The notes beneath the pieces are model-generated. The model saw only the letters and a program-made list of their open reading frames with translations. It searched no databases and was not told the origin of the DNA. Shown here piece after piece: positions 4,467-58,762 of a DNA stretch of 64,000 nt; positions within the stretch are counted from its first letter, which is position 1; every line of letters starts with the position of its first letter. A program made the translations under genes and the position numbers. This DNA comes from Planctomycetota bacterium (GTDB lineage: Bacteria; Planctomycetota; OFTM77): positions 39,866 to 103,865 of the forward strand of contig JAJDCO010000125.1 in the NCBI GenBank assembly GCA_029260795.1, read 5' to 3'.

Positions 4467-5483
4467 TCAGGTCGATGGAGCGGCCTCGACGACACAGCAG
4501 CGGAACCCGACGTTGTCGATCCGGTCATCCGATCGGGTATAGAGGCGGGCGTCGCAGCTGAGAAACTCGTGTGTGTCCGCGTAGCATCCGCCACGAAGGA
4601 CCTTCGCTTCGTAGGGGATTTCGTAGTCCGAGGCCGTCCATTCCCAGACTCCACCGGCCATGTCTTGAACCCCGAATGGCGATGCGTTCTTGGGATGAGC
4701 ACCGACGTCGGCGAGCTCGTCGCTGTTGTAGTTCACGCGAGCGCGGTCGAATCGATGTCCCCACGGGTAGCGACGTCCGTCTTCCCCCCGTGCGGCCTTC
4801 TCCCACTGCTCTTCTGTGGGGATTCCCTTGCCGGCCCACTTCGCATAGGCGACGCAGTCGGTGTAAGAGACGCCCACGACCGGCTGGTGGAGGCGATTGT
4901 ATTGTGGATCTCGCCAGTAGAGTGGCTCCGCGTGCCCCGTCTCCTGAAGGAAGGCGGCATACTGCTCGTTGGTGACGGGATGTTGATCGATTCGAAACGG
5001 ACCGATGTACCGTTCCTTCTTCTTCGGACCAAAGAGAAAGATACCGCCTGGAATGTTAACCATGTCCACCAACCGAGGGTCTGTAGACCTCCCTCCGGCG
5101 GCACTCCCAGTCAGCAAGGTCCGGATCTCGGCCTCGATTGTCTCGAGCTCGCCGCGATCACTGAAGTAGTCGTTGATGTCTTCGAGACGATCGCTGACCT
5201 CTTCCCAATCGCTCTCACCCGTCAAGAACAGGTACCCGTCGAGCACCTGCTTGGCCTTCTTCATGAAGGTGTACTGAGCCTCTTCGTCCTCCTCCTCGAA
5301 GGCATGCTCGAAGAGCAAGATGCCGTAGAAGAATGACTCCTTGTCTTTCTCGAGCGGCCGACTGGAGTAGTACTCTTCGAACGAGACGAGGAGGTCGTCT
5401 GTGGAGTATTCGGGCTCCACCTTTCCACCCTCAATGTACTTCTGCCAGATCTGATTCTTGGCCTTGTCGATACTGACTGTCAT
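4467..5483 (-). CDS. FGE / SUMF1 family protein (formylglycine-generating enzyme-like, DUF323) with an unknown acidic N-terminal domain
   Basis: C-terminal half carries FGE hallmarks: GGIFLFGP, YAAFLQETGH, WEKAARGEDGRRYPWG, RVLRGGCY, GFRCC. The N-terminal ~130 aa (MTVSIDKAKNQIWQKYIEGGKVEPEYS...EEEDEEAQY) has no family I recognise. The gene is visibly less GC-rich than its neighbours. Confidence 0.7.
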   Translation of the reverse strand: MTVSIDKAKNQIWQKYIEGGKVEPEYSTDDLLVSFEEYYSSRPLEKDKESFFYGILLFEHAFEEEDEEAQYTFMKKAKQVLDGYLFLTGESDWEEVSDRLEDINDYFSDRGELETIEAEIRTLLTGSAAGGRSTDPRLVDMVNIPGGIFLFGPKKKERYIGPFRIDQHPVTNEQYAAFLQETGHAEPLYWRDPQYNRLHQPVVGVSYTDCVAYAKWAGKGIPTEEQWEKAARGEDGRRYPWGHRFDRARVNYNSDELADVGAHPKNASPFGVQDMAGGVWEWTASDYEIPYEAKVLRGGCYADTHEFLSCDARLYTRSDDRIDNVGFRCCVVEAAPST

Positions 5484-5588
5484 TCTTTGCCTCGACTCCT
5501 CGAGCCTCTCCAGCCAAGACTCAAACCCTTACATAACTTGCACTTAGGTGCCATTGCGCATCTAAGGCCAAGCCTGGATACTAGCGAA

Positions 5589-5618
5589 CGGGCCGGTCCG
5601 CGTCAACGGACCGGCCCG
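5589..5618 (-). terminator. Perfect 12-bp GC-rich hairpin (CGGGCCGGTCCG-cgtcaa-CGGACCGGCCCG) between the secreted-TPR gene and the FGE gene. Possibly a weak terminator or attenuator.
   Basis: Perfect inverted repeat read directly from the sequence. It lies ~50 nt downstream of the 5666 stop on the minus strand, with only a short T stretch after it. A GGTGCATC direct repeat sits next to it at 5617-5640. Confidence 0.3.
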
Positions 5619-5665
5619 GTGCATCCCCCGGTGCATCAATTGGAGGTCGAGAGTATCCGCCCCTC

Positions 5666-46723: not shown

Positions 46724-46876
46724 TCGGAATCAGAGCCAGAACGGGGAGCCAGCGGAGGAGGCTGGTCGAGTCTCCCGAAGGAGTTATCGGAACGCGAATC
46801 GTTCGAACCGAAGGAGTTTCGCGGCGAGTGGTTGCCCGGAGCTTCCCAGAAAGCCTTGACTCCCCGAGCGTTACGG

Positions 46877-46906
46877 TTTGACAGCCGGTCCTCGGGTCTG
46901 CTAGCG
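46877..46906 (+). promoter_or_regulatory. Sigma70-like promoter candidate for tgt (TTGACA, 18 nt, TAGCGT)
   Basis: Read from the sequence in the 246-bp divergent intergenic region. Confidence 0.25.
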
Positions 46907-46969
46907 TCCTGCCCCGGCCGCCCCCGGTGCGGCCGGACTCGCGGATCTCCACCGACGGGCCGACCACCG

Positions 46970-48097
46970 ATGACGACCCAGACTCCATCCCTGAGCTTCT
47001 CTCTGGAAGCCACCAATACCGGCTGCAGCGCCCGAGCGGGTCGCCTCCGAACGCCCCACGGTGAGACGCTGACGCCGGTGTTCATGCCGGTCGGCACCCA
47101 CGGGGCCTTGAAAGCGCTCACGCCCCGCCAGGTCGACGAGTCGGGCGCGACCATCGTCCTCGCCAACACCTACCATCTCGCCATCCGGCCGGGTGAAGCT
47201 CTGGTCGAGAAGAGCGGTGGCCTTCATGGCTTCATGCGCTGGCCGCACACGATCCTGACCGACAGCGGCGGCTTTCAGGTCTTCAGCCTCCCGGGAACGA
47301 AGATCGACGACGACGGCGTCAAGTTCCGGTACGAGAAAGGAGGGGAGGCCGTCACGCTGACACCCGAGCGCTCCATGGAGATCCAGATGACGCTCGGAGC
47401 GGACATCATCATGGCGTTCGACGAGTGCGTTCCCTTCCCCTGCGAGCGCTCCCGGGCCGAGCGCGCGATGCATCGGACGCTCGCCTGGGCCAAGCGTTGC
47501 CAGGCCCGACACGACAAGGCGGACCAAGCGCTCTTCGGCATCGTACAGGGCAGCACCTACGAGGACCTTCGACGACAGAGCGCTCGCGACCTGGTTCGCC
47601 TCGACTTTCCCGGCTATGCGATCGGTGGCGTGAGCGTCGGTGAGGGCCTCGAGCTGCTCAAGCAAGTCGTCTCGTGGGCGGCGCCCGAGCTGCCGGAGGA
47701 TCGTCCTCGCTATCTCATGGGAGTCGGCCTTCCCGAGGACATCCTCGAATCGATCGAGCGTGGGATCGACATGTTCGACTGCGTGATCCCCACTCGCTAT
47801 GCTCGCAGCGCGACACTCTTCACCTTCCGCGGCCGCATCCGCGTCACCAATCGCCGTTATCGTCGCGACCTCTTTCCGGTCGAGCCGAACTGCAGCTGTT
47901 ACACCTGCCGCGAGTTCACCCGCGCCTACCTCCACCATCTGTTCCAGTCGGGCGAGATCCTCGGCCAGATCCTCGCCTCGATCCACAACGTATCTTTTTA
48001 TCAGATGATAATGCAGCAGGCGCGAGAGGCGATCCTCGAGAACCGCTTCCCGGAGCACAAGGCCCGCTTCCTGGAGGAGCAGGCTCGCGGTCGTTGA
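46970..48097 (+). CDS. tgt: Queuine tRNA-ribosyltransferase
   Basis: DSGGFQ catalytic motif. Zn site CSCYTC...H. 375 aa from ATG 46970; the track ORF start at 46517 is an artefactual extension. Confidence 0.9.
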   Translation: MTTQTPSLSFSLEATNTGCSARAGRLRTPHGETLTPVFMPVGTHGALKALTPRQVDESGATIVLANTYHLAIRPGEALVEKSGGLHGFMRWPHTILTDSGGFQVFSLPGTKIDDDGVKFRYEKGGEAVTLTPERSMEIQMTLGADIIMAFDECVPFPCERSRAERAMHRTLAWAKRCQARHDKADQALFGIVQGSTYEDLRRQSARDLVRLDFPGYAIGGVSVGEGLELLKQVVSWAAPELPEDRPRYLMGVGLPEDILESIERGIDMFDCVIPTRYARSATLFTFRGRIRVTNRRYRRDLFPVEPNCSCYTCREFTRAYLHHLFQSGEILGQILASIHNVSFYQMIMQQAREAILENRFPEHKARFLEEQARGR

Positions 48098-48212
48098 CGA
48101 GCTTCGCGGTGTGCTCTCGCCCCTTCCCGGGATTGACGCAGGAGCGATCGGCTCCCGACCCGACAGACCACCTGGATGGCTCTCGAACAGTCGGGTGCCT
48201 GTCGGTCACCGA

Positions 48213-49904
48213 TCACCGGTAGAAGTCGGTTCCCGTGATTCGGTTGTAGGCCCGTTGGGCGGCGGTTCGGAACGCCTCCTCGACTTCGGGATCGTCGGCC
48301 AGACGTTGAACCATCTCGAGCGAAGCTTGGTCGCGCACGTCTCCGAGGAATGAGATGGCCGCCGTCCTCAGCTCGACCGACTCGTCGGCATCGATGACGA
48401 GCTCCCGGAACAGCGGCGCGGCTTCCGGACGATTGGCGAACAGCAGCGCCTCGAGCGCGCCTTCGCGTATGGACTCCGGATGTCCATCGTCCCGATAGAG
48501 CTTCGTGAGGAAGTCGATCGCCGGACCGTCGCCGATGCGGGCGAGGCCGACTGCGGAGTTGATGCGCACTCCGATGTCCTCGTTCTCTGCCTCGAAGCGG
48601 CCGCGAAGGACAGAGCTCACGCTCTCGGCATCCAATGCCGAGAGACCCGCCGCTGCAATTCGTCGCACCATGTCACCCGCCTCGTCCGGGATCATGAGCG
48701 CCGCCTGGAGTGGCGGAATCACGGCCGGCGTCTCGAGGCGCCGGAGGATCAGCACCGCCAGCAGACGCTCCTCGGAGGGTGAGCCCGAAGAGATCACGTC
48801 CGCCAAGAGATCGATACCGCGCGGCCCGAGCTCACGAAAACGCGAGGACAGCTTCACGGCCTCCGCGATCAACGGATAGAGGAAGCCGGCTTCGGCGCTG
48901 GTCGTGAAGTCGTCCATCAAGGCGACCACAGTCGATTCGGGCACTGCCTGCCGTTCCACTTGAACGAGCAGTGCTCCGTTCTCCGCCAGCGCGTCGCGCA
49001 GCTGCTTTCGCGTCGAGAAGAGCTCTTGCTGCAACGTCGCTTCGAATCGGCGAAGCTGTCGGAGCTCGAGCTCGAGAGCCGCGATCCGTTCTTCGGCGTC
49101 GGACGGCTGGGCAGCCGGCCCACTCACTCGTCGCGGGCCGGCAGTCCCGACCAGACCTTCTTGACCGGACTCGATCACGACCTCTCGGCCGCCATGCATG
49201 AGGCGCGCCCGACCTTCGTGCACGGCCAGCTTCAAGCCGGCGTTTCCATGGCGCTCGAGTCTCGCCAACGTGCCCGGCTCCAGCTCAGCTTGGCCGAGAG
49301 GCGAATCCACTCTCAGAGCGGTCGGTGACAAGGAGGTCACAGTCAAAGTCCCCGACTCGAGTCGAAGGCGATCGATCGCCGTGGGCTCGACCCGAGCGCT
49401 CTCGTCGTTCGCGGCGAGCTCGAAAGCGATACCGTTCGACATCGAGGCCGCCAGTCGACCTCCGGGTGTGACTTCCAGCAGCTCTCCGGTACGAAGCTCA
49501 CTGCCGATTTGAATCACTTGACCGGCAGACCGGGCCTCTCCGCTCAGTGAGCGGATGACGCCCTCCATCGACTCGGGACCCCGGCTCGGCCAGAGGACGA
49601 CGGCGAGGAGCGTGGCGGCAGCGGCGGTGGCGAGATGCGTCCAAACTCCGGCACCGATGCGCGACGACTTGCGGCCGGCGGCTCGTTCCCGGCGGATGCG
49701 CCGGAGGACCTCGACCGAGAAGCTCGGATCGTCAATCGACGCCCCGGACTCCTGCAGGCGTCGCCCGATCGCTCGGGCGGCCTCGATCTCCTGGCGACAG
49801 AGCGCGCACACTCCGAGGTGAGCCTCGACGGCCAACCTCTGAGTCGCTTCGAGCTCGCGATCGAGGTAGAGCTCATGGAGCTCGAGCACGTCACGACATT
49901 CCAC
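48213..49904 (-). CDS. ZAS-type anti-sigma factor with TM helix and C-terminal HEAT/PBS-lyase-like repeats
   Basis: HLGVCALC (HxxxCxxC). TM segment THLATAAAATLLAVVLW. C-terminal repeats ...GDGPAIDFLTKLYRDDGHPESIREGALEAL.... Confidence 0.6.
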   Translation of the reverse strand: MECRDVLELHELYLDRELEATQRLAVEAHLGVCALCRQEIEAARAIGRRLQESGASIDDPSFSVEVLRRIRRERAAGRKSSRIGAGVWTHLATAAAATLLAVVLWPSRGPESMEGVIRSLSGEARSAGQVIQIGSELRTGELLEVTPGGRLAASMSNGIAFELAANDESARVEPTAIDRLRLESGTLTVTSLSPTALRVDSPLGQAELEPGTLARLERHGNAGLKLAVHEGRARLMHGGREVVIESGQEGLVGTAGPRRVSGPAAQPSDAEERIAALELELRQLRRFEATLQQELFSTRKQLRDALAENGALLVQVERQAVPESTVVALMDDFTTSAEAGFLYPLIAEAVKLSSRFRELGPRGIDLLADVISSGSPSEERLLAVLILRRLETPAVIPPLQAALMIPDEAGDMVRRIAAAGLSALDAESVSSVLRGRFEAENEDIGVRINSAVGLARIGDGPAIDFLTKLYRDDGHPESIREGALEALLFANRPEAAPLFRELVIDADESVELRTAAISFLGDVRDQASLEMVQRLADDPEVEEAFRTAAQRAYNRITGTDFYR

Positions 49905-49909
49905 CGCGG

Positions 49910-50500
49910 TTACCTCTTGATTGCGTAGTCTTTCAGATGGCGTTGCAGCAGCTTCTTTCCACGGTGGATGTTGATGCTCACGACGTTGGGCGTGACCCCG
50001 AGGATATCCGCGATGTCCTTACAGGCCAAGCCGTCGAAGTACCGCATCGCCAGGGCAGTGCGGTAGTTCTCCGGGAGCTTCGCCATCGCTTCCCACACGA
50101 CTCGTTTCGTCTCTTGGGTCTGGAGCGTCGGAGGAACTCCGGATTCTCCCCCACCGATTCGAGTCACCTCGACCGAACGATCGGTGACCCGACGCTCGAG
50201 CTTGAGGCGCTTGACCTTGTTGAAGGAGAGGTTCACCCCGATGCGGAACAGCCAGGAGGAGAACTTGTAGGTGGGATCGTAGAGGTGGATGGCCTTGAAC
50301 GCCCTGAGGAAGGTGTCCTGACAGATCTCCAACGTCAGATCATGGTTACGCAAGATCGAGTAGAGGATCGAGTAGAGGCGATCCTGGTACTTTACGACCA
50401 AGCGTCCGTAGGCCTCCGGGTCCCCGGTTCGGACTTCGGAAACGATCTGGACGTCTTCGGCTGCCGTCTCGCTGGGCTTTTGCTGGGCTGGCACGATCAT
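49910..50500 (-). CDS. ECF sigma factor
   Basis: Region 2 YSILRNHDLTLEICQDTFLRAFKAIHLYDP. Region 4 ALAMRYFDGLACKDIADILGVTPNVVSINIHRGKKLL. ATG at 50500. Confidence 0.75.
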   Translation of the reverse strand: MIVPAQQKPSETAAEDVQIVSEVRTGDPEAYGRLVVKYQDRLYSILYSILRNHDLTLEICQDTFLRAFKAIHLYDPTYKFSSWLFRIGVNLSFNKVKRLKLERRVTDRSVEVTRIGGGESGVPPTLQTQETKRVVWEAMAKLPENYRTALAMRYFDGLACKDIADILGVTPNVVSINIHRGKKLLQRHLKDYAIKR

Positions 50501-50737
50501 GGTCCTCGCGTTACAGGCGAGCGGACCCAGACTTTCAAGTCTCACCGGAATCAGCGACCGACTCGAGAGGGCCGAGCCTGCCGAAGCACCTGACGCCTGG
50601 TCACGGTCGCGAGAGAACCCCGCGGTTCCGGAAGCCAATAGTATAAGATGGCGGGCTTCCTCGGGGCCTTCGGGCTCTTGTAATAGGCGACGGCCTACAG
50701 CCCGACCCCGGCCTTATTCTCCAGGAAGACTCGTATC

Positions 50738-53320
50738 TTGAAGATCAAGCAGACCCCCGAAGACTTTCGGGTCATCGAGCGATCCGAGCCCCCGGTCTCC
50801 AAGACCGGATCCGGACCATACTACCTCTACGTGCTGCGGAAGAAGAAGCTCACCACGCCCGAAGCGATCCGTGAGCTGGCCCGCGCAAGTGACCTCCGGA
50901 CCGATGCCTTCGCCCACGCCGGCCTCAAGGATCGGCAAGGGGTCACAGAGCAGCTCATCTCGGTCACGGGCAAGCCGATCCGGTACGAGTCCCACCAGAT
51001 TCGCCTCAAATACCTCGGCCGATCCCGCCGGGCGGTCGAGAAAACGGACAGTCAGGGCAATCGCTTCGAGATCACACTGCGGCATCTGCGCAGGAGCGAA
51101 GCCGTGGATCTGGTCGAGGCCGCTGAGGAGGTCCGGAGCATCGGAGTCCCCAACTACTTCGACAGCCAGCGCTTCGGATGCATCCGGCACGGCCAGGGCT
51201 TCATCGCCCGACACGTCATCCAAGGCGACTTCGAAGAGGCCTTGCGGCGAATGATCGCCTCGAAGTCGCGCTTCGAGACCAAGGACGCCCAATTCAAGGG
51301 CTACCTGCGAAAGCACTGGGGAAAGTGGCGAGATCTCGCCGGACGACATCGACGCTCACTCTACAGCCGGCTCTTCAGCTACCTCGGAGACCATCCGAGC
51401 GACTTTCGCGGGGCGCTCAAGCTCGTGCCACTCGGCACCAAGCTCATTCATCTGTGTGCTTATCAGAGCTTCCTGTGGAACGAGATGCTTCGCCGTTACC
51501 TCGAGGCCGAGGGCGAATCCGGACCCGAAGTCCCCAAGGCAGCCCCCGTCGAAGCACCGAAGCCCGTGCAGGACGAAGGTCCGAAGGAGACGCTCCTCGC
51601 CGGTCCCCCTCTCGAGGACGACACACCCGACGAGAGTCCGGCCGGTTCGGAGCAGGCAGCCACGAAGCCGCCAGAGATCGAAGCCACGAAGCCCGAGCCG
51701 GCTCCTGAAAGGTGGTTGGGCACGCAGTACGAATGCGGTTGGCTGGTCTTTCCGAACAACCTGACTCGGAAGCGAGCTCTCGAGCTGCGAGAGCTCAAGC
51801 TGCCCCTGCCCGACGCACACACGCGACCGAGTGATCCGCGCATCGCGCGTGCCCTGGGGCATGCCTTGAATCACGAGGGCCTCGACCTTCGGGACCTCGA
51901 CATCCAGGACATCCCGGGATTCCTCTTCAAGGAAGAGCCGCGGCCCGCGATGCTCGTTCCCGAAGAGCTCACCGTCCGCGAGCCGGAGCCAGATGATCTG
52001 AATCGGGGGTTCTTCAAGGTCCGCTTGTCCTTCTCGCTCCCGCGTGGCGCCTACGGCTCCCTGATCCTCAAGCGTCTCCTCGCCGAGCCGGCCCCGGCCA
52101 ATCCTAAAGCGCGCGAACCCCGCGGTGCTCCCAGGGCTCAAGCCTTGCCCCCGAAGCGATGGCAGTCCGAGAGAACCCACAGCTCCAGCCGCGAGGGGCG
52201 GTCCGATGCTCGGGGAGAGCGAAGAGAGGGATACCTGGGCCCGCGCCAACGAGAGGCTTCACAAGGAATGTCGGCAGGCAGCGATCGCCGCCGAGGTCCC
52301 AGAAAACCCCACGAAGCAGCGGCGGTACACGGTGGGCGGTGGCCTGCAAACAAAGACACATTCGATCGGAACCGCCCTTCCAACAGCGACCGATCCGGGG
52401 ACGAGGACAACTTCGAAGGCTTCGAGGCTGAGGTGCGGCGCCGACCCGAGCCTGGTTGGAAGCAGCGGCGAGAAAGCAGCACTCCGAGCGGAGGCCCTGA
52501 TCGCAAACCCTCAGGGGGACACTCGGGACGCGACCGAGACCGTCGGGCAGGCGGAGATGACCACCGGAAGCCTCTGGGAGCGAGAGGAGGCCGACGCAGC
52601 GCGAGCACCGGTTGGAAGCCGCGCGATCCGACGGCGAGCAGAGATCGCAAGCCGGGCCAGGGCTACGCACGAAACACCAGCGGCGGAGGACAATCAACCG
52701 GTCGCCCGGGCGGAAGCTACGCCGGCAGTGGTCGGTCCGCCGGCAGTGGACACGCATCTGGCGGTAGGTCTGGCGGAAGCTACTCCGGCGGTGGTCGACC
52801 TGGCGGCGGTGGACATTCAGCAGGTCGACCGGGCGGAAGCTACTCCGGCGGCGGTCGACCCAGCGGCGGTGGACATTCGGCTGGTCGACCGGGCGGGAGC
52901 TACTCCGGCGGTGGTCGACCGGGCGGCGGTGGACATTCGGCTGGTCGACCGGGCGGAAGCTACTCCGGCGGTGGTCGACCGGGCGGCGGTGGACATTCGG
53001 CTGGTCGACCGGGCGGAAGCTACTCCGACGGTGGTGGAACCGGAGGTGGCAAGCCTTGGGGATCCGGCCGACCGCGCGGCGCAAATCACCCAGAGCGGGG
53101 CCGCCCCAGCGGGGGTGGTCGACCGGGAAATGCTTACTCGGCCGGCGGACGTCCCGGCGGCGGATACTCCGGCGGTGGCAAGCCGGGTGGTGCTGGCCGG
53201 CCGGCTGGAGGTCGACCCGGCGGGAACCGAGGATCTCGCCCGGCAGCCGGTCCGAATCGACGCTCGTCCCGTCCTGAGGGAGAGCGCTCCCGCGAGGCGG
53301 AGCGTGGTGGCGACTCCTGA
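50738..53320 (+). CDS. truD: tRNA pseudouridine(13) synthase TruD fused to a ~420-aa Gly/Arg/Ser-rich (GAR/RGG-like) C-terminal tail. Also carries a ~70-aa Pro/Glu-rich insertion.
   Basis: TruD signatures LKDRQGVTEQ and GVPNYFDSQRFG. The catalytic domain runs to about aa 440. The tail is low-complexity with tandem 20-aa units GGGRPGGGGHSAGRPGGSYS. Confidence 0.8.
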   Translation: MKIKQTPEDFRVIERSEPPVSKTGSGPYYLYVLRKKKLTTPEAIRELARASDLRTDAFAHAGLKDRQGVTEQLISVTGKPIRYESHQIRLKYLGRSRRAVEKTDSQGNRFEITLRHLRRSEAVDLVEAAEEVRSIGVPNYFDSQRFGCIRHGQGFIARHVIQGDFEEALRRMIASKSRFETKDAQFKGYLRKHWGKWRDLAGRHRRSLYSRLFSYLGDHPSDFRGALKLVPLGTKLIHLCAYQSFLWNEMLRRYLEAEGESGPEVPKAAPVEAPKPVQDEGPKETLLAGPPLEDDTPDESPAGSEQAATKPPEIEATKPEPAPERWLGTQYECGWLVFPNNLTRKRALELRELKLPLPDAHTRPSDPRIARALGHALNHEGLDLRDLDIQDIPGFLFKEEPRPAMLVPEELTVREPEPDDLNRGFFKVRLSFSLPRGAYGSLILKRLLAEPAPANPKAREPRGAPRAQALPPKRWQSERTHSSSREGRSDARGERREGYLGPRQREASQGMSAGSDRRRGPRKPHEAAAVHGGRWPANKDTFDRNRPSNSDRSGDEDNFEGFEAEVRRRPEPGWKQRRESSTPSGGPDRKPSGGHSGRDRDRRAGGDDHRKPLGARGGRRSASTGWKPRDPTASRDRKPGQGYARNTSGGGQSTGRPGGSYAGSGRSAGSGHASGGRSGGSYSGGGRPGGGGHSAGRPGGSYSGGGRPSGGGHSAGRPGGSYSGGGRPGGGGHSAGRPGGSYSGGGRPGGGGHSAGRPGGSYSDGGGTGGGKPWGSGRPRGANHPERGRPSGGGRPGNAYSAGGRPGGGYSGGGKPGGAGRPAGGRPGGNRGSRPAAGPNRRSSRPEGERSREAERGGDS
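52741..53040 (+). repeat. Five copies of a 60-bp in-frame tandem repeat inside the truD 3' region (degenerate copies extend upstream to ~52700)
   Basis: The unit gggcggcggtggacattcggctggtcgaccgggcggaagctactccggcggtggtcgacc lines up exactly with the 60-nt sequence lines; copies 4 and 5 are near-identical. Confidence 0.85.
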
Positions 53321-53366
53321 CGGCATTGTTCTCTCGGTGCCCTTCGGAGCACTTGCTGAAAGTCGA

Positions 53367-53395
53367 TTGACCCTCTCGCCCCCTCCGCGTATAAG
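53367..53395 (+). promoter_or_regulatory. Strong sigma70-like promoter candidate for rplC (TTGACC, 17 nt, TATAAG), giving a ~140-nt leader
   Basis: Near-consensus hexamers with optimal spacing. The leader contains the hairpin ACCGCTC-gag-GAGCGGT. Confidence 0.45.
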
Positions 53396-53539
53396 GGCGG
53401 GTCTTATCGTTCCGCATGGAGGCGGTCTTGCCCGTCTCCCGCTGCGCCTACCCGATGAATTCCCTTCACCGGCGCAAGCACGGATTGCCTTCCGACCGCT
53501 CGAGGAGCGGTGTCCTGATTCCGTCACGAAGGAACTCCC

Positions 53540-54196
53540 ATGTCCCTAGGACTGCTCGGCCGCAAACAGGGTATGACCCAGATCTTCGATGAGACTGGCG
53601 TGATCATCCCGGTCACGATCATCCAAGCCGGCCCCTGCCCCATCGTTCAGATCAAGAAGCACGAGACCGACGGCTACACGGCGCTCCAAGTCGCCTTCGA
53701 GCCGCGGCGCGCGAACATCACCAAGAAGCCCTTGGTCGGCCACTACAAGAAGGCGGGCGTGGACACCCACCGCGTTCTGCGCGAGATGCGCTTGGACGAC
53801 GATGAAGCACTCAAGGCCCACGAGAACGGCGAGCCGCTGACCGTCGACATCTTTCAAGTCGGCCAGTACGTCGACGTGACCGGCACGTCCAAGGGCCACG
53901 GCTTCACGGGTGTCATCGTGCGCCATGGCTTCCACGGAATGCGCGCGACGCACGGTACGCACGAGTTCTTCCGGCACGGTGGTTCGATCGGTATGCACTC
54001 GTGGCCGTCCCGCGTCTTCAAGGGCACCAAGATGCCCGGGCAGCACGGCAACGCTCGCGTGACGACGCAGAACCTCAAGGTCGTCAAGATCGACGCGGAG
54101 AAGAATCTGATCCTCATCAAGGGTGCCGTACCGGGCACGCGCAACGGCCTGCTGGAAATACATCCGGCCCTCAAGAAGCCGGCACTGAAGGCCTGA
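53540..54196 (+). CDS. rplC: 50S ribosomal protein L3
   Basis: Aligns along its length with E. coli L3: GMTQIF, VDVTGTSKGHGFTGV, SIGMHSWPSRVFKGTKMPGQHGN, LIKGAVPG. Confidence 0.9.
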   Translation: MSLGLLGRKQGMTQIFDETGVIIPVTIIQAGPCPIVQIKKHETDGYTALQVAFEPRRANITKKPLVGHYKKAGVDTHRVLREMRLDDDEALKAHENGEPLTVDIFQVGQYVDVTGTSKGHGFTGVIVRHGFHGMRATHGTHEFFRHGGSIGMHSWPSRVFKGTKMPGQHGNARVTTQNLKVVKIDAEKNLILIKGAVPGTRNGLLEIHPALKKPALKA

Positions 54197-54226
54197 TCAG
54201 ACTCGACGACACTCGACAAGCACGCG

Positions 54227-54264
54227 GAGGGAGCCTGGCGACGGGCTCCCTCGTTTCGTTTCGG
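54227..54264 (+). terminator. Rho-independent terminator candidate after rplC
   Basis: GAGGGAGCC-tggcgacg-GGCTCCCTC followed by GTTTCGTTTCGG. It ends 13 nt before the rlmE ATG. Confidence 0.45.
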
Positions 54265-54276
54265 AACCCCCACGCC

Positions 54277-54870
54277 ATGGCCTACGAGCTCGACGATGGA
54301 TACCGCCGGCAGGCTCGCCGCGAAGGCTACGCCGCGCGGGCGGTGTACAAGCTCGCCGAGATCCATCAGCGTTACCGCATTCTGACGCGGGGAGGCTCCG
54401 TGCTCGACCTCGGTTGTGCGCCGGGCTCCTGGCTTCAAAAGGCTCGTGAGATCGTCGGTCCGAGCGGCCAGGTCGTCGGCATCGACCTCGTGGCCGTCGA
54501 CGCCGACGCCTGCCCGGGCGCGCGACTCCATCAGGGCGACTTCTTCTCGGATGACGGGCGCACGTTCTTGGCAACGCACGGGCCCTACGAGGCCGTGTTG
54601 AGCGACATGGCCCCGAAGACGTCGGGAATCAAGTCGGCCGACCAGGCACGCTCCCTCGAGCTGTGTGAAGGTGCGTGGCTCGTCGCACAGCAGCATCTGA
54701 AACCGGGCGGTAGCTTCGTGTGCAAGATCTTCCAAGGGGCCGGATTCCCCGAGCTCCTCAAGGACGTTCGGCGGCGCTTTCGCAAGACCCACGGCTTCAA
54801 GCCGAAGAGCTCGCGCTCAGCCAGCATGGAAACCTACATCGTCGGCTTGGGGTATCAGCCCGAGAGCTGA
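54277..54870 (+). CDS. rlmE: 23S rRNA (uridine2552-2'-O)-methyltransferase RlmE (FtsJ)
   Basis: SAM motif VLDLGCAPGSW. K-D-K-E catalytic residues including SDMAPK. 197 aa. Confidence 0.85.
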   Translation: MAYELDDGYRRQARREGYAARAVYKLAEIHQRYRILTRGGSVLDLGCAPGSWLQKAREIVGPSGQVVGIDLVAVDADACPGARLHQGDFFSDDGRTFLATHGPYEAVLSDMAPKTSGIKSADQARSLELCEGAWLVAQQHLKPGGSFVCKIFQGAGFPELLKDVRRRFRKTHGFKPKSSRSASMETYIVGLGYQPES

Positions 54871-54879
54871 GCTCGGAAC

Positions 54880-56622
54880 GTGAGGTTCCCGTTGTCGGTG
54901 GCCGGCCGTCCGAATACGATCGCGAAACGGGACGAGGATTCGAATCGGTCCAGGAGCGAAGTGGTGCGGCTCTTCAAGAAGATCCTGTTGTCGGTCCTCT
55001 TTACGGTCGGCTTCTTCGCGGCGGTCGAAACCGCCTTGTTCTTCGTCGGCGTCGGCGAGAGCTGGAGCCCGTTCGAGCAAGAGCGCGACTCGGAAGGCTC
55101 GTGGGTCGCCAAGCTCGCCCCTCGAGGCGCCTTTCACTTCCACTCCGAACGCTTCCCCGTCGACAAGCCGAGCGATACCTTTCGCGTATTCACCTTCGGC
55201 GGGTCGTCGACATACGGTTACCCGTTCAGCCGCGCACATTCCCGCAGCTCGTTCTCCGGCATGCTCCGCGTCCTGCTGACCGAGCGCTATCCCCAGCGAC
55301 GCATCGAGGTCATCAACTGCGGCTCGCCGGGCATGGACAGCCGCGCCAGCCTCGAGATCTTGCACGCGGCGTTGGACTACTCGCCCGACGCGCTCGTCGT
55401 GTACTCGGGTCACAACGAGTTCCTCCCCCAGAACGTCACGCTCACTCGCCGGGCACTCGAGCAGCCCCTCTGGAATGGCGTGCTCGAGTTTGCGGGCTCG
55501 CTGCGCTTGTTCGGGTTGCTCCGCTCCGCCATCACGCCGAAGCTGCCCCAGCGCGAAGAGGTCACGTTCAACGACCTCGTCCAATACGATCAAATGATCG
55601 GTCCGCCACTTTGCGGTCCCGACGAGACGAAGGCCGTCCTCACCGGATACCGACAGAACCTTACCGCCATGGCCGAAGCGGCGACCGTGCCGCTCTTCTT
55701 CTGCCTGCCCGCCTCCAACCTCGCCGACATGGAGCCGAACGTCTCCACGCACAGCACCGATCTCGATCCTCGCCTCATGATCCGCTTCGACGAGGCCTTC
55801 AGCGAAGGGCGTGCGAAGGCGGCTCAGGAAGACTGGAGCAGCGCGATCGAGGCCTTCAAGAAGGCCAATCGGGCCGACCCGAATGTCGCCGAGTCGCACT
55901 ACCAGCTCGGTCGCGCTCTCGAGGCGGCGGGCGAGTTCTCTCGTGCCCGGGCCGAGTACTTGCGCGCGCGCGACCTCGATGGCCGCCCGCTGCGAGCCAC
56001 GGCGGCCATCCTCGAGATCGTCGAGACCGTCGCGCGCGAGCAATCCCGCGTCACCCGGATCGACACGATGTCCGGCCTGACCGCCGCGGCGCCGAACGGC
56101 TTGATCGGCAACGGACAGATCATCGACAACGTCCACCCGACTCTCGAAGGCGACTACGTGCTCGCGCGGCAGATCGCCGACGCGCTCGGAGCCGCCGGTC
56201 TACCGGCTGGCGCTCGTTCGGAGCGTCCCGATCCCGACTTCGCCGAGTGCCTGCGCAAGACGGGGTCGCGGCCCGAGCTCGTGACGGAAGGGCTCGCCGA
56301 GGCTGGCCTCTACCTGCTGCGATTCGTACCGATGCGCTACGACCGGGCGCGTCGAGCCGCCCGCACCGAGGAGGTCTTCCAGCAGGTGCTGGCCGAGAAG
56401 CCCGACAACTTTCGTGCGCTGCACGGCCTCGCCACGCTCTACCTGATGGTCGGTCGCACGGACGAGGCCAAGACGATCCTCGACAGCACCCTCGAGAAGC
56501 AGCCCGCCTCAGCGGCGCTGCTCGTGCACTTCGCCAAGCTCTCGCCCTACTTGACTCGCCTCTACCAAGAAGCGGGGCTCGACCTCGAAGCGCTGAAGGC
56601 GAAGATCCCCAAGACTCAGTGA
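54880..56622 (+). CDS. Membrane-anchored SGNH/GDSL-family hydrolase or acyltransferase with C-terminal TPR region (paralog 2)
   Basis: FRVFTFGGSSTYGYPF, VYSGHNEF, IDNVHPTLEGDY. C-terminal TPR. Paralog of 2905..4461. Confidence 0.6.
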   Translation: MRFPLSVAGRPNTIAKRDEDSNRSRSEVVRLFKKILLSVLFTVGFFAAVETALFFVGVGESWSPFEQERDSEGSWVAKLAPRGAFHFHSERFPVDKPSDTFRVFTFGGSSTYGYPFSRAHSRSSFSGMLRVLLTERYPQRRIEVINCGSPGMDSRASLEILHAALDYSPDALVVYSGHNEFLPQNVTLTRRALEQPLWNGVLEFAGSLRLFGLLRSAITPKLPQREEVTFNDLVQYDQMIGPPLCGPDETKAVLTGYRQNLTAMAEAATVPLFFCLPASNLADMEPNVSTHSTDLDPRLMIRFDEAFSEGRAKAAQEDWSSAIEAFKKANRADPNVAESHYQLGRALEAAGEFSRARAEYLRARDLDGRPLRATAAILEIVETVAREQSRVTRIDTMSGLTAAAPNGLIGNGQIIDNVHPTLEGDYVLARQIADALGAAGLPAGARSERPDPDFAECLRKTGSRPELVTEGLAEAGLYLLRFVPMRYDRARRAARTEEVFQQVLAEKPDNFRALHGLATLYLMVGRTDEAKTILDSTLEKQPASAALLVHFAKLSPYLTRLYQEAGLDLEALKAKIPKTQ

Positions 56623-56691
56623 AGCCCGAGGCGCCGACGCTCCCGGACGTCGACGCCCTCCAAAGCGTCCTCAGTGATCGTCGGAGGCGAT

Positions 56692-56745
56692 GAGTGATCT
56701 TCCCCCGTTCTCGTGGACACCTTGGTCATGCCGCGAACACGGCGA
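56692..56745. repeat. Copy B of the dispersed 54-bp repeat (GAGTGATCTTCCCCCGTTCTCGTGGACACCTTGGTCATGCCGCGAACACGGCGA)
   Basis: Three mismatches to copy A. It contains the stop codon of the truncated beta-lactamase-family ORF. Confidence 0.6.
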
Positions 56746-57022
56746 TCGTCATCGGCTTCGTCACCGAGGCGATGCTGAAGCGGGTGCTCGGTGCATTCGG
56801 CACACCGAGCTCGTAGCTCGCCATGCCGTAGGACCTCTCGAAGAGCACCTCGTTGCCTTTTGCGAGAAGCACGGTGCCGGAGAGATGGCCCGCGTCAGCG
56901 TATGGCTTCAGGTAGGCATGGATTCTCTCGGCAACATCCGGCGACGCGTCTTCGGCCTCTTGAGCGAGGATCGGTAGGGACGGGAGCAGAAGCGCAACCA
57001 GAGCGATCAGGCATCGAGTCAT
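56726..57022 (-). pseudogene. Truncated beta-lactamase / PBP4-family serine hydrolase N-terminal fragment (98 aa of an expected ~350-400)
   Basis: Signal peptide MTRCLIALVALLLPSLPILA, then GTVLLAKGNEVLFERSYGMASYELGVPNAPSTRFSIASVTKPMT (the S-x-x-K active-site helix). The frame terminates inside the repeat, and no continuation exists downstream in any frame. Confidence 0.5.
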
Positions 57023-57146
57023 GAGAGCCTCCCGAGGAGGGGGAAGTCGGACCGTGCGCGTGGGTACTGCGATACGGTACGCGGTTCCGACTCGGTGTGT
57101 GAGAAGGACACCGGTGCGGGGAGCCCGAACGACGGCACGAGCTCGA

Positions 57147-58331
57147 TCAGGATTTCCGGTCCGCCGAAGCCGCGCGATTCTTGGTGGCTCGACGCGGGGG
57201 CGGCTCGACACTCGACAGCTCGGCCCGACGGATCTTGAGCTTGAGCGACTGCTCGATCCGCTCGAGGCGCCAGGTGTCCTTGGGCTCGACCAGTGTCGTG
57301 GCAGTGCCTTTCTTGCCGGCGCGCCCCGTCCGGCCGATGCGATGCGTGTACTCGCGACCGCCCTGGGGCAGGTCGAAATTGATGACGTGGTCGAGCCCTT
57401 CGACATCCAGACCGCGGGCTGCGACATCGGTCGCGATGACCACGCGAACGGATCCGCTCCGTAGCTGTCTCAGCGTGTGGTTGCGTGCACCTTGAGTCTT
57501 GTCACCATGCAGCACGCCGCAGTGCAAGTTGTGATGCGAGAGCTCACGAGCCAAGTAGTCGGCCGTCCTCTTGGTCGCGACGAAGACCAGCGTTCGACTT
57601 CGCTTGCCCTTCTCGAGGAGCGCGGCCAGCAACGCGATCTTGTGGTCTCGAGTCTGGGCGAGGTAGGCCACCAGCGAGATGTCCTGATGTCGCTCGCGCG
57701 GGCCGCCGGTTTCGATGCTGTCGGGATCGCGCAAGATGTCGTCAGCGATCCTCTTCACTCGGCCCCCGAGGGTCGCCGAGAAGAGCAAGGTCTGTCGCTC
57801 TTCGGGTAGAAACGAGGCGATCTTCTTCACGTCGTCGATGAAGCCGAGGTCCAGCATGCGATCCGCTTCGTCGAGGATGAACACCTCGAGGCGCTGAAAC
57901 CTCACGCGGCCTTTCTCGAGATGATCCAGCAGGCGACCGGGCGTCGCGACGACGAGGTCGTGCTTCTCTTCGAGGCGTCGCACTTGATCCTCGATCGAAG
58001 CTCCACCGACGAGCGTCACGGCTCGCAGCTTCATGAACTTGCCCATGTCCAAGAAGACGCCCGCGACCTGCTGTGCAAGCTCCCGTGTCGGCGTCAGCAC
58101 GAGCAGGCGAGGGCCCCGCACGGCGACGCGGGCCGGCTGCAGCAAGCGCTGCAAGGAGGGCACCGCGAAGGCGACGGTCTTGCCCGATCCCGTCTGTGCC
58201 GCGGCCATCAAGTCACGCCCCTTGAGAATCACCGGAATCGCTTGCGCCTGAATCGGTGTGGGCTTCTCGAACCCTTGCCGCCGAATGCCGCCAATGAGCC
58301 GAGGGTCGAGCGAGAAGTCTTTGAACGACAA
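57147..58331 (-). CDS. DEAD-box ATP-dependent RNA helicase (RhlE-like)
   Basis: Q-motif, AQTGSGKT, DEAD, SAT, HRIGRTGRAG. Basic C-terminal tail. The likely start is TTG at 58331 (M-SFKDFSLDP); the in-frame ATG at 58526 adds 65 unlikely residues. Confidence 0.85.
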   Translation of the reverse strand: MSFKDFSLDPRLIGGIRRQGFEKPTPIQAQAIPVILKGRDLMAAAQTGSGKTVAFAVPSLQRLLQPARVAVRGPRLLVLTPTRELAQQVAGVFLDMGKFMKLRAVTLVGGASIEDQVRRLEEKHDLVVATPGRLLDHLEKGRVRFQRLEVFILDEADRMLDLGFIDDVKKIASFLPEERQTLLFSATLGGRVKRIADDILRDPDSIETGGPRERHQDISLVAYLAQTRDHKIALLAALLEKGKRSRTLVFVATKRTADYLARELSHHNLHCGVLHGDKTQGARNHTLRQLRSGSVRVVIATDVAARGLDVEGLDHVINFDLPQGGREYTHRIGRTGRAGKKGTATTLVEPKDTWRLERIEQSLKLKIRRAELSSVEPPPRRATKNRAASADRKS

Positions 58332-58762
58332 GCGAAGCTCCGAAGCGGGAAGACGGAGGACGATCGGCCACACGAATCGAATCAAGCAGATTAGCGAGAT
58401 CGCCAACGGAACGCCAGAATCGGCACCGCAAAGCCAGCGGCACTCAAGACCACCCAAAGGAACCACGCCTGAAGCTGGCGGCACGAGGGCCACCAGGGGA
58501 GAACCTTCCGCCGCGCCGCGACCCAAGCGACTCCCTCAAACCACCCGCCCCGCCGCACGTACCCAAGACAATCACTCTATCCGCAGCGCCATGCGGCCCG
58601 CTACCGGAGGTTTGGCTCGAGGCACGATCACGTTGCCGATGCGCTCGGTCCGCTGGCTCCGCCGAGCCACTCTCCGAACTTGGTACGCTCCCCTCCGCTT
58701 GATAGCTTGGTGGCCTCACGGGAAAGAGGTTGAAGTGCCACACCGAGTAGGAGAGCGCACCG

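What the first reader, a model, noticed from the sequence alone, without database searches (positions are those of the whole stretch)
50738..53320. TruD tRNA pseudouridine synthase fused to a ~420-aa eukaryote-like Gly/Arg-rich (GAR/RGG) tail
Bacterial TruD is normally ~350 aa and ends after the catalytic domain. Here the ORF continues for ~1260 nt of G/R/S/P-rich low-complexity sequence. That tail includes GGGRPGGGGHSAGRPGGSYS tandem units and runs of RGG-like motifs, resembling the RNA-binding GAR domains of fibrillarin, nucleolin and FUS. A disordered RNA-binding appendage on a tRNA modification enzyme is not something I know from characterised bacterial TruD proteins. It could alter substrate range or localisation, or it could be a genuine domain acquisition.
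Basis: partly seen in the sequence, partly recalled or inferred. Interest (0 to 1): 0.7.

Follow-up and report, generated by a model that had tools for sequence, protein, structure and literature searches.

The report
TruD enzyme with disordered Gly/Arg tail
This is a real, intact tRNA pseudouridine synthase (TruD) gene that continues in frame into a ~395-residue disordered glycine/arginine-rich tail; such tails are the rule in a whole branch of TruD enzymes from Planctomycetota and Myxococcota, not a one-off or a eukaryotic import, and nobody has studied what they do.

Summary
The 860-codon ORF (50738-53320, +) is real. Residues 1-465 are a complete TruD-family pseudouridine synthase, shown by the Pfam match, the conserved catalytic Asp65 and NYFDxQRFG motifs, and a confident AlphaFold core that matches solved TruD/PUS7 structures. 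Residues 466-860 are a low-complexity tail (G 28%, R 16%, S 13%, P 9%, net +40) that is predicted disordered and has no Pfam, PDB or sequence homologue. It contains six 60-nt tandem repeats encoding GGGRPGGGGHSAGRPGGSYS.

The "RGG/GAR" label does not hold. The tail has only 2 RGG triplets and no di- or tri-RGG/RG arrays; GRP and GGR dominate.

The tail is not unusual for its lineage. In a core-only exhaustive search, 67 of the 78 sequences in one TruD clade carry extensions of 60-608 aa (mean core identity 40%). None of the 64 outside that clade does. The extensions share composition but not sequence, and a few sit at the N-terminus. Cultured Myxococcota have shorter A/R/P/E/K versions.

Best reading: a clade-wide disordered polycationic appendage, remodelled by repeat expansion and probably acting as a non-specific RNA tether. 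That function is inferred, not shown. Interest is moderate. The architecture is common in databases, but my literature searches found no description of it.

The parts
50723..50728 (+). Shine-Dalgarno-like AGGAAG, 9 nt upstream of the TTG start
   Evidence: Read directly from the sequence.
50738..51508 (+). TruD part 1 (aa 1-257). It holds the N-terminal catalytic segment with GLKD (catalytic Asp65, nt 50930-50932) and the TruD insertion domain with NYFDSQRFG (aa 139-147).
   Evidence: Pfam PF01142 covers aa 2-257. D65, K35, N139, Y140, Q144, R145 and F146 are invariant in alignment A1. pLDDT is 81-97.
51509..51712 (+). Internal acidic Pro/Glu/Ala-rich insertion (aa 258-325, net charge -11), predicted disordered
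   Evidence: It is absent from 24 aligned relatives. The N248-G334 linker is 85 aa here, against a median of 23 in 141 relatives, and none of those reaches 60. pLDDT is 40-46.
51713..52132 (+). TruD part 2 (aa 326-465), the C-terminal half of the catalytic domain, ending in the conserved LPRGAYxxxxxKRL motif
   Evidence: It is the second Pfam/phmmer stretch. R402, D419, P435, G437 and Y439 are conserved. pLDDT is 75-96.
52133..52657 (+). Tail segment A (aa 466-640): non-repetitive, R 20%, G 14%, S 11%, D+E 15%, a mixed-charge net-basic disordered region
   Evidence: Composition is. pLDDT is 30-48 with no secondary structure. No Pfam family.
52658..53320 (+). Tail segment B (aa 641-860 plus the stop codon): G 40%, S 15%, R 13%, P 10%, Y 4%. 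It contains the GGGRPGGGGHSAGRPGGSYS repeats, with Tyr every 20 residues.
52680..53043 (+). Tandem DNA repeat, 60-nt period, 6 copies, the last four near-identical
   Evidence: TRF score 489, 85% matches. Differences between copies concentrate at codon position 3 of the TruD frame, and the synonymous fraction is highest in that frame.
53384..53401 (+). Terminator-like hairpin 64 nt after the stop codon. No such site lies inside the tail on the + strand.
   Evidence: This is weak evidence: the number of sites found equals the number expected by chance.

Best explanation
The gene encodes one 860-aa protein. It is a catalytically intact TruD-family pseudouridine synthase of the archaeal/Pus7-like bacterial subfamily. 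Its C-terminus continues into a ~395-aa intrinsically disordered tail that is Gly/Arg/Ser/Pro-rich and net positive.

The tail was not acquired as a domain. It is the local version of an extension that characterises a whole TruD clade in Planctomycetota, Myxococcota and allies. In each lineage the extension is rebuilt by in-frame expansion and decay of short repeats. Length and sequence therefore change fast, while composition stays the same: high G/R plus D/E/S/P, spaced aromatics, and almost no aliphatic residues or Cys.

The most likely mechanism is inferred, not shown. The tail would act as a flexible polycationic RNA tether that raises local affinity or avidity of the enzyme for tRNA and possibly other RNAs. 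Its multivalency could also help place the enzyme in RNA-rich assemblies. This is what basic disordered tails do in bacterial RhlE helicases, atypical Rho and RNase E.

My confidence differs by claim: about 0.9 that it is a single translated TruD-plus-disordered-tail protein and a clade-wide trait, and about 0.5 that the tail's role is RNA binding or tethering.
For: Identity of the core:
- Pfam TruD scores 196.8 bits.
- Catalytic Asp65 and the NYFDxQRFG motif are invariant.
- The AlphaFold core has pLDDT mostly above 88, and Foldseek matches M. mazei TruD (E=5e-23, target TM 0.71), PUS7 and E. coli TruD.

Single ORF in the correct frame:
- There is no stop for 860 codons.
- The closest relative P0001 (65% core identity) sits in a syntenic locus: anti-sigma, ECF sigma, TruD, L3. 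It has a 339-aa in-frame G/R/P/D tail.
- Differences between repeat copies favour codon position 3 and synonymous changes in the TruD frame.
- The alternative-frame and antisense ORFs have no family.

Clade-wide trait:
- In the core-only exhaustive search, 64 of 141 complete representatives have C-terminal extensions of 60 aa or more, 42 of 200 or more, and 13 of 400 or more.
- On an NJ tree, all 67 extended sequences (C- or N-terminal extension of 60 aa or more, window included) fall in one clade of 78. The 64 outside that clade have at most 38 aa. Mean core identity within the clade is 40%.
- Species genomes show the same pattern. Corallococcus, Myxococcus, Archangium and Cystobacter carry tails of 60-170 aa. 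Planctomycetota range from 0 to 330 aa.

Composition conserved, sequence not:
- The tail alone finds no homologue.
- Only 3 of 1711 tail pairs are significantly similar.
- Pooled over 58 tails against a random GC-65% expectation: G 21 vs 11%, R 20 vs 14%, D 9 vs 3%, L 1.3 vs 7.5%, C 0 vs 2.9%.
- Three relatives carry the G/R-rich extension at the N-terminus instead. This argues for a position-independent, composition-based role.

Disorder: pLDDT is 30-48 with no secondary structure across residues 465-860.

[quoted passage not shown] Arg-rich disordered insertions raise the RNA affinity of Rho (PMC11347177).
Against: - There is no direct evidence of expression, RNA binding or any phenotype.
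- Arg-rich, net-positive composition is partly what GC-rich coding sequence gives by default.
- The repeats are recent (near-identical copies) and length varies 10-fold among relatives. That fits weak constraint.
- 11 of the 78 clade members lack an extension of 60 aa or more.
- GC3 drops from 0.79 in the core to 0.60 in the tail, and likewise in five other tailed TruD genes. This could indicate relaxed codon selection.
- The NJ tree is rough and the taxonomy of most representatives is unknown.
- I could not test whether other RNA enzymes of these genomes carry similar tails.
Confidence: 0.6

Rival explanations
1. Tolerated junk. The tail is a functionally neutral low-complexity extension, created by replication slippage in a GC-rich genome. 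It persists only because a disordered soluble C-terminal appendix does no harm.
For: Repeat copies are near-identical, so the expansion is recent. Tail length ranges from 60 to 608 aa and sequence is not conserved. Some clade members have lost the tail. GC3 is lower in tails. High R and net positive charge are expected from GC bias alone.
Against: The extension is retained in 86% of a clade whose cores have diverged to 40% identity, and is absent from all 64 members outside that clade. Composition departs from the GC-bias expectation: D and E are 2-3 times enriched, and L, V, I, T and C are purged. Substitutions between repeats favour synonymous sites in frame. None of 41 other candidate genes in the window has a comparable stretch; the only two ORFs that reached 40% G+R over 60 residues, against about 55% in the TruD tail, do not look like tails. 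N-terminal versions exist.
Confidence: 0.25
2. The tail is functional but not as an RNA tether. It could bind a protein partner, the ribosome or the nucleoid. It could act as an entropic spacer or solubility tag. It could also autoregulate the catalytic cleft.
For: Tail segment A is a mixed-charge region (FCR 0.39), and the same protein carries an acidic internal insertion that could pair with the basic tail. The gene neighbours rplC, rlmE and a DEAD-box helicase gene. TruD-family proteins occur as mitoribosome assembly factors in trypanosomatids (Foldseek hits 6yxx, 7aoi).
Against: The truD-rplC adjacency is shared only with the closest relative. No conserved short linear motif is shared between tails. 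The acidic insertion is confined to this lineage, whereas the tail is clade-wide.
Confidence: 0.1
3. Artefact. A sequencing or assembly frameshift, or a chimeric join, fuses TruD to unrelated sequence; or the real gene in 52100-53450 lies on another frame or strand.
For: Long alternative ORFs overlap the tail: 52125-53549 (+) of 474 aa and 52104-53417 (-) of 437 aa. The antisense ORF has GC3 of 0.77, above the 0.60 of the tail frame.
Against: Independent assemblies of many relatives show the same in-frame architecture. The alternative ORFs have no Pfam family. Their high GC3 is a geometric by-product of GGN/CGN codons in the TruD frame. The substitution pattern supports the TruD frame.
Confidence: 0.03
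4. Eukaryote-derived GAR/RGG domain acquired by horizontal transfer, methylated and used like the GAR domains of fibrillarin, nucleolin or Gar1.
For: The composition broadly resembles a GAR domain (G+R = 44%). Some relatives do have true RGG arrays, for example P0102 with 38 RGG and 9 tri-RGG.
Against: The window's tail has no di- or tri-RGG/RG motifs and no detectable homologue of any kind. Tails differ between close relatives and arise from local 60-nt repeats. No arginine methyltransferase appears among the window ORFs scanned.
Confidence: 0.02

Closest known systems
TruD / Pus7 family pseudouridine synthases (E. coli TruD 1SZW, M. mazei TruD 1Z2Z, human PUS7 5KKP)
   Same: The core has the same fold and catalytic motifs. 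Its sequence is closest to the archaeal and eukaryotic members: 1z2z E=7.6e-28 and PUS7 8.5e-16, against E. coli TruD 8.8e-07. The internal insertion sits where the alignment to PUS7 breaks off (residue ~398), inside the span of PUS7's 'insertion C' (residues 381-578, PMC12710931).
   Different: No solved or characterised member has a long disordered G/R-rich terminal tail. PUS7's extra parts are folded domains (R3H-like domain and insertion C).
Basic intrinsically disordered extensions of bacterial RNA enzymes: RhlE1/RhlE2 C-terminal disordered regions, atypical Rho insertion regions, RNase E C-terminal region
   Same: These are disordered, Arg-rich, fast-evolving and lineage-variable appendages on a conserved RNA-handling core. 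Experiments show they raise RNA binding and drive condensates (PMC11260450, PMC11347177). Atypical Rho is common in the PVC group, which includes Planctomycetota (PMC11347177).
   Different: The host enzyme here is a tRNA modification enzyme, not a helicase, terminator or nuclease. The composition is much richer in Gly, Ser and Pro, with regular Tyr spacing. No experiment exists for TruD tails.
Eukaryotic GAR/RGG domains (fibrillarin, nucleolin, Gar1 of the H/ACA pseudouridylation RNP, FUS)
   Same: They are Gly/Arg-rich, disordered and attached to RNA-modification machinery. Disordered regions of snoRNPs foster concentration on RNA and RNA modification (PMC12951762, PMC11528048).
   Different: The window's tail fails the RGG/RG array definition, with GRP and GGR motifs instead. 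It shows no homology. Arg methylation is unknown. The tail is fused directly to a stand-alone synthase rather than carried on an accessory subunit.
Gly-rich disordered linkers/tails of bacterial nucleic-acid-binding proteins, such as the E. coli SSB linker and the Gly-rich Hfq tail of Acinetobacter (recalled from memory, not tested here)
   Same: They are G/P/Q/S-rich repeats with scattered aromatic residues on a nucleic-acid-binding core.
   Different: They are much shorter and are not Arg-rich.

Membership tests
TruD family (Pfam PF01142) | Profile match above the curated cut-off | tested here: met
   196.8 bits against a cut-off of 27, E=7e-58, in two stretches that flank an insertion.
TruD family (Pfam PF01142) | Catalytic Asp in the GxKD loop, plus the conserved Lys and the NYFDxQRFG motif of the TruD domain | tested here: met
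   G62, K64, D65, K35, N139, Y140, Q144, R145 and F146 are invariant in 25- and 38-sequence alignments.
TruD family (Pfam PF01142) | V-shaped two-domain TruD fold | tested here: met
   The AF2 core has pLDDT mostly above 88. Foldseek gives 1z2z E=5e-23 with target TM 0.71, 5kkp 3.7e-19, and 1szw about 3e-15.
TruD equivalog (tRNA U13-specific enzyme, NCBIfam) | Score above the equivalog cut-off, and actual specificity for position 13 | tested here: inconclusive
   The best model NF002160 scores 225.7 bits against a cut-off of 428. TIGR00094 scores 120 against 172.2. Both scores are lowered by the insertion and by divergence. Substrate specificity cannot be tested in silico.
Eukaryotic RGG/GAR domain | Clustered RGG or RG repeats: tri/di-RGG or tri/di-RG with spacers of 0-4 residues (definition recalled from the RGG-motif literature) | tested here: not met
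   The 395-aa tail has 2 RGG triplets and no di- or tri-RGG or RG arrays. The fibrillarin GAR used as a yardstick has 9 RGG in 80 aa.
Eukaryotic RGG/GAR domain | Sequence relationship to known GAR-bearing proteins | tested here: not met
   The tail-only search gave no hit at E<=1e-3. There is no Pfam family and no PDB hit outside the core.
Eukaryotic RGG/GAR domain | Arginine methylation by a PRMT | not testable with these tools
   No PRMT-like family appears among the roughly 36 window ORFs scanned. The rest of the genome is not available.
Basic disordered RNA-binding extensions of bacterial RNA enzymes (RhlE, Rho, RNase E type) | Intrinsic disorder, low complexity and net positive charge on a conserved RNA-enzyme core | tested here: met
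   pLDDT is 30-48 with no secondary structure. NCPR is +0.10, and only 3.5% of residues are I, L, V, M, F, W or C.
Basic disordered RNA-binding extensions of bacterial RNA enzymes (RhlE, Rho, RNase E type) | Demonstrated RNA binding, condensate formation or partner recruitment by the extension | not testable with these tools
   This needs biochemistry or microscopy.
Collagen-like / structural Gly-X-Y repeat | Gly at every third residue | tested here: not met
   The Gly fraction is 0.40-0.41 in all three phases. There is no Collagen Pfam hit.

The most novel reading that the evidence does not exclude
The tailed TruD clade could be a bacterial counterpart of the GAR/Lys-rich disordered regions of eukaryotic snoRNPs. 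On this reading, the G/R/aromatic tail drives the synthase into RNA-rich condensates or onto nascent RNA. It would thereby widen the enzyme's targets from tRNA U13 to rRNA or mRNA sites, as with Pus7, or give it an RNA-chaperone or ribosome-assembly role independent of catalysis.
Probability: 0.12. Interest if true: 0.7.

Novelty: new variant of a known kind. Interest (0 to 1): 0.35.

Why it matters
Disordered, charged tails are now recognised as functional parts of bacterial RNA helicases, Rho and RNase E, where they act in RNA binding, condensates and partner choice. None has been described for a tRNA modification enzyme.

Here the tail is not an oddity of one gene. It is a trait kept across a deep TruD clade while its sequence is constantly replaced. 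That makes it a clean natural experiment on selection for composition rather than sequence. It also offers a testable case for whether disordered regions tune the substrate range or location of a stand-alone pseudouridine synthase.

There is a practical point too. Such genes are annotated simply as 'TruD', so the architecture is invisible in annotation.

Tried and rejected
1. A tail-only homology search found nothing. It therefore could not show which other protein families carry similar tails.
2. I scanned the flanks of 81 related loci for other G/R-rich ORFs. The scan was swamped by off-frame GC-rich ORFs (290 hits). Four candidates with high GC3 checked by Pfam were uninformative. I abandoned this line.
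3. I tested the alternative-frame and antisense ORFs over the tail. They have no family, and their high GC3 is a by-product of Gly/Arg codons. Rejected.
4. Rfam and the promoter/terminator scan of the gene and its flanks found no RNA family and no internal terminator.
5. DNA and protein comparison of the window's tail with that of the closest relative gave no real alignment. The best in-frame score was 31% identity with composition correction switched off.
6. Conserved synteny as a functional clue: the truD-rplC adjacency is shared only with the nearest relative, so I did not use it.
7. Folding the conserved truD-rplC intergenic block gave z = -1.45, which is not significant.
8. Literature searches for TruD or pseudouridine synthase tails in Planctomycetes or bacteria found no description of this architecture. 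The library is incomplete, so this is weak evidence of absence.
Full report
**The observation.** An uninterrupted ORF runs from a TTG at 50738 to a stop at 53318-53320 on the + strand, 860 codons. An AGGAAG motif lies 9 nt upstream of the start. The predicted N-terminus MKIKQTPEDF is identical to that of the closest database homologue. Pfam TruD (PF01142) matches at E=7e-58, in two stretches. The last ~380 residues match no Pfam family. Tandem Repeats Finder reports a 60-nt unit repeated six times at 52680-53043, with 85% matches and score 489. In the ORF's frame this reads GGGQSTGRPGGSYAGSGRSA / GSGHASGGRSGGSYSGGGRP / four copies of GGGGHSAGRPGGSYSGGGRP-like units.

**Three details need correcting.**
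- The folded enzyme extends to about residue 465, so the tail is about 395 aa.
- The tail is not made of RGG motifs. It has 2 RGG triplets and no di- or tri-RGG or RG arrays, but 15 GRP and 10 GGR.
- The ~350-aa reference length applies to E. coli-type TruD. Tail-less members of this subfamily are 385-420 aa.

**The enzyme part.**
- In alignments of 25 and 38 homologues, the catalytic Asp (D65 in GLKD), K35 and the NYFDxQRFG motif (aa 139-147) are invariant.
- AlphaFold2 with a 38-sequence alignment gives pLDDT mostly 88-97 for residues 1-262 and 322-464.
- Foldseek against the PDB returns M. mazei TruD (E=5e-23, target TM 0.71), human and yeast PUS7, and E. coli TruD.
- By sequence, the core is closer to archaeal TruD and PUS7 than to E. 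coli TruD.
- NCBIfam equivalog models match but stay below their cut-offs. The family assignment is secure, but position-13 specificity is only assumed.

**The tail.**
- Residues 466-860 are G 28%, R 16%, S 13% and P 9%, with net charge +40 (73 basic, 33 acidic). Only 3.5% are I, L, V, M, F, W or C. There are 18 aromatic residues.
- The first 175 residues are a non-repetitive mixed-charge R/G/S/D/E region.
- The last 220 are 40% Gly, with Tyr at a regular 20-residue spacing set by the repeat.
- The whole tail has pLDDT 30-48 and no predicted secondary structure.
- Gly shows no three-residue periodicity, so the tail is not collagen-like.

**Is the tail really coding, and in this frame?**
- GC3 falls from 0.79 in the core to 0.60 in the tail. 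Long ORFs exist in another + frame and on the antisense strand, so I took the artefact hypothesis seriously.
- Against it, the closest relative P0001 (65% core identity) lies in a syntenic locus from an independent Planctomycetota assembly: anti-sigma, ECF sigma, TruD, L3. It has a 339-aa in-frame G/R/P/D tail.
- Dozens of other homologues are open in frame through similar tails.
- Differences between the six repeat copies concentrate at codon position 3 of the TruD frame (118, against 99 and 59 at positions 1 and 2). Codon differences are synonymous more often in that frame than in any other frame carrying a long ORF across the repeats.
- The rival ORFs have no family. Their high GC3 follows mechanically from GGN/CGN codons on the TruD frame.
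- The GC3 drop recurs in five other tailed TruD genes. It reflects a shift towards GGT, GGA and CGA codons and is a property of these tails, not a sign of non-coding DNA.
- No terminator-like site lies inside the tail on the + strand. One lies 64 nt after the stop, which is weak evidence.

**How common is the tail?**
- My first search used the full protein and could have been biased towards tails.
- I therefore repeated it with the core alone against 1.84 billion cluster representatives.
- Of the 141 best hits with a complete core, 64 have C-terminal extensions of 60 aa or more, 42 of 200 or more, 25 of 300 or more and 13 of 400 or more, up to 608 aa. Almost all are G/R-rich with D, S or P, and net positive.
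- On a neighbour-joining tree of the cores, all 67 extended sequences (counting two N-terminal ones and the window) fall within one clade of 78 terminals. The remaining 64 terminals have extensions of at most 38 aa. Mean pairwise core identity within the tailed clade is 40%, with a minimum of 28%.
- Species genomes give the taxonomy. Every Myxococcaceae or Archangiaceae TruD recovered carries a 60-170-aa A/R/P/E/K-rich tail, including cultured Corallococcus, Myxococcus, Archangium and Cystobacter. Planctomycetota range from no tail to ~330 aa of R/G/D.
- Three relatives have the G/R-rich region at the N-terminus instead (P0020, P0033, P0035).
- The window's tail is at the long end of a very common architecture.

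**Composition is conserved; sequence is not.**
- The tail alone retrieves nothing at E<=1e-3 from 5.8 billion proteins.
- Among 59 tails of 100 aa or more, 3 of 1711 pairs are significantly similar, and none of those involves the window.
- Even against P0001, the tails cannot be aligned. The neighbouring proteins are 53-83% identical, and an intergenic block just downstream is about 84% identical at the DNA level.
- Repeat units differ from lineage to lineage. Examples are GGYRGRSEGEG, DDRGPRDQRSGGPSGQWRGPGGPR and GGGQRSYGGGQSQGGWKGRDDNS.
- Pooled composition departs from what random GC-65% codons would give. G is 21 vs 11%, R 20 vs 14%, D 9 vs 3% and E 7 vs 3%. L, V, I, T and C are nearly eliminated.
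- Retention over deep divergence, position independence and a composition not explained by mutation bias all argue for selection on bulk properties.
- The recency of the repeats, the ten-fold length range and occasional losses leave room for the neutral view.

**Mechanism.**
- Shown: an intact TruD core, a single ORF, a disordered net-basic low-complexity tail, origin by local tandem duplication, and clade-wide retention.
- Inferred: the tail acts as a flexible polycationic RNA tether, and possibly as a multivalent 'sticker-spacer' element (Arg plus evenly spaced Tyr/Trp/Phe). It would raise RNA affinity or place the enzyme in RNA-rich assemblies.
- The precedents are bacterial. RhlE1/RhlE2 disordered regions facilitate RNA binding, unwinding and phase separation (PMC11260450). 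Arg-rich disordered insertions of atypical Rho, common in the PVC group, increase RNA affinity and can drive condensates (PMC11347177).
- The eukaryotic analogy (GAR and Lys-rich disordered regions of snoRNPs fostering RNA modification, PMC12951762 and PMC11528048) is functional only. The defining RGG arrays are absent here and there is no homology.

**Comparison and novelty.**
- The protein is a member of the TruD family by every test I could run.
- It is not a member of the RGG/GAR class.
- It works most like the basic disordered extensions of other bacterial RNA enzymes.
- I found no paper describing such tails on TruD. A 2025 review of pseudouridine synthase mechanisms lists only apo TruD/PUS7 cores and never mentions disorder.
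- Hundreds of such sequences already sit in public databases labelled simply 'TruD'.
- I therefore rate it a new variant of a known kind, of moderate interest.

**A rarer feature of this gene.** The 68-aa acidic Pro/Glu/Ala-rich insertion (aa 258-325) is less common than the tail. The linker that contains it is 85 aa here, against a median of 23 in 141 relatives. None of those reaches 60, and only P0001 (55 aa) and one other come close.

**Limits.** No expression or biochemical data exist. The taxonomy of most representatives is unknown. The tree is a quick NJ tree. I could not survey other proteins of the same genomes for similar tails. The window is only 64 kb, so the absence of an arginine methyltransferase says little.

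Noticed in passing
window 51509-51712 (TruD aa 258-325): A second disordered segment lies inside the enzyme. It is an acidic Pro/Glu/Ala-rich insertion (net -11) between the TruD domain and the return to the catalytic domain. The linker is 85 aa, against a median of 23 in 141 relatives, and none of those reaches 60; only P0001 (55 aa) is comparable. It lies where the alignment to human PUS7 breaks off, within the span of PUS7's large insertion C. This is rarer than the tail itself. An acidic insert plus a basic tail could interact.
   Followed up: partly
window ~53388-53450 (truD-rplC intergenic); L001 5877-5969: A ~95-nt intergenic stretch upstream of rplC is about 84% identical between the window and the nearest relative, with a near-identical core block at ~53388-53450. 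The adjacent tail-coding DNA cannot be aligned. There is no Rfam match. The predicted hairpins are not better than shuffled sequence (z = -1.45). It may be an rplC promoter or leader.
   Followed up: partly
window 46517-58535: RNA and translation genes cluster around truD: tgt (46517-48094 +), truD, a stand-alone rplC (53540-54196 +) followed by an FtsJ/RlmE-type methyltransferase (within 54001-54870 +) rather than rplD, and a DEAD-box helicase (57150-58535 -). The truD-rplC adjacency is shared only with the closest relative L001, so it may be coincidental. L3 separated from the S10 operon is unusual.
   Followed up: partly
window 52133-53317; L001, L030, L034, L061, L079, L024 TruD tails: GC3 drops sharply in the tail relative to the core of the same gene, in all six tailed TruD genes checked (for example 0.79 to 0.60 here and 0.88 to 0.57 in L001). 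Codon use shifts towards GGT, GGA and CGA. This may reflect avoidance of long G/C runs or relaxed codon selection. It is unexplained.
   Followed up: partly
proteins P0020, P0033, P0035: Some relatives carry the G/R-rich low-complexity region at the N-terminus of TruD (156-495 aa) rather than the C-terminus. P0033 has nearly 500 aa of G/R/A/P before the core.
   Followed up: no
proteins P0066-P0071: A separate group of distant homologues has a ~205-225-aa N-terminal PF02542 (YgbB/IspF) domain fused to TruD. This is an IspF-TruD fusion that mirrors the ispF-truD gene adjacency known in E. coli (from memory).
   Followed up: no
window 52104-53417 (-) and 52125-53549 (+): Two long ORFs (437 and 474 aa) overlap the tail on the antisense strand and in another + frame. 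The antisense one has higher GC3 than the true frame and would mislead GC3-based gene finders. They have no family and are by-products of the repeat and its composition.
   Followed up: yes
model m2d495cfb47b0 vs PDB: Besides TruD and PUS7, the core matches TruD-family proteins bound in trypanosomatid mitoribosomal large-subunit assembly intermediates (6yxx, 6yxy, 7aoi, 7am2). This is a reminder that TruD-fold proteins can act as ribosome assembly factors.
   Followed up: no
L010, L012, L021, L037, L039, L040, L045, L046, L054, L068, L076 (about 5400-6300): In many Myxococcota loci an ECF-type sigma factor gene lies just downstream of truD. It is 25-29% identical to the window's ECF sigma, which lies divergently upstream of truD. 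This is probably chance, given how numerous ECF sigmas are.
   Followed up: no
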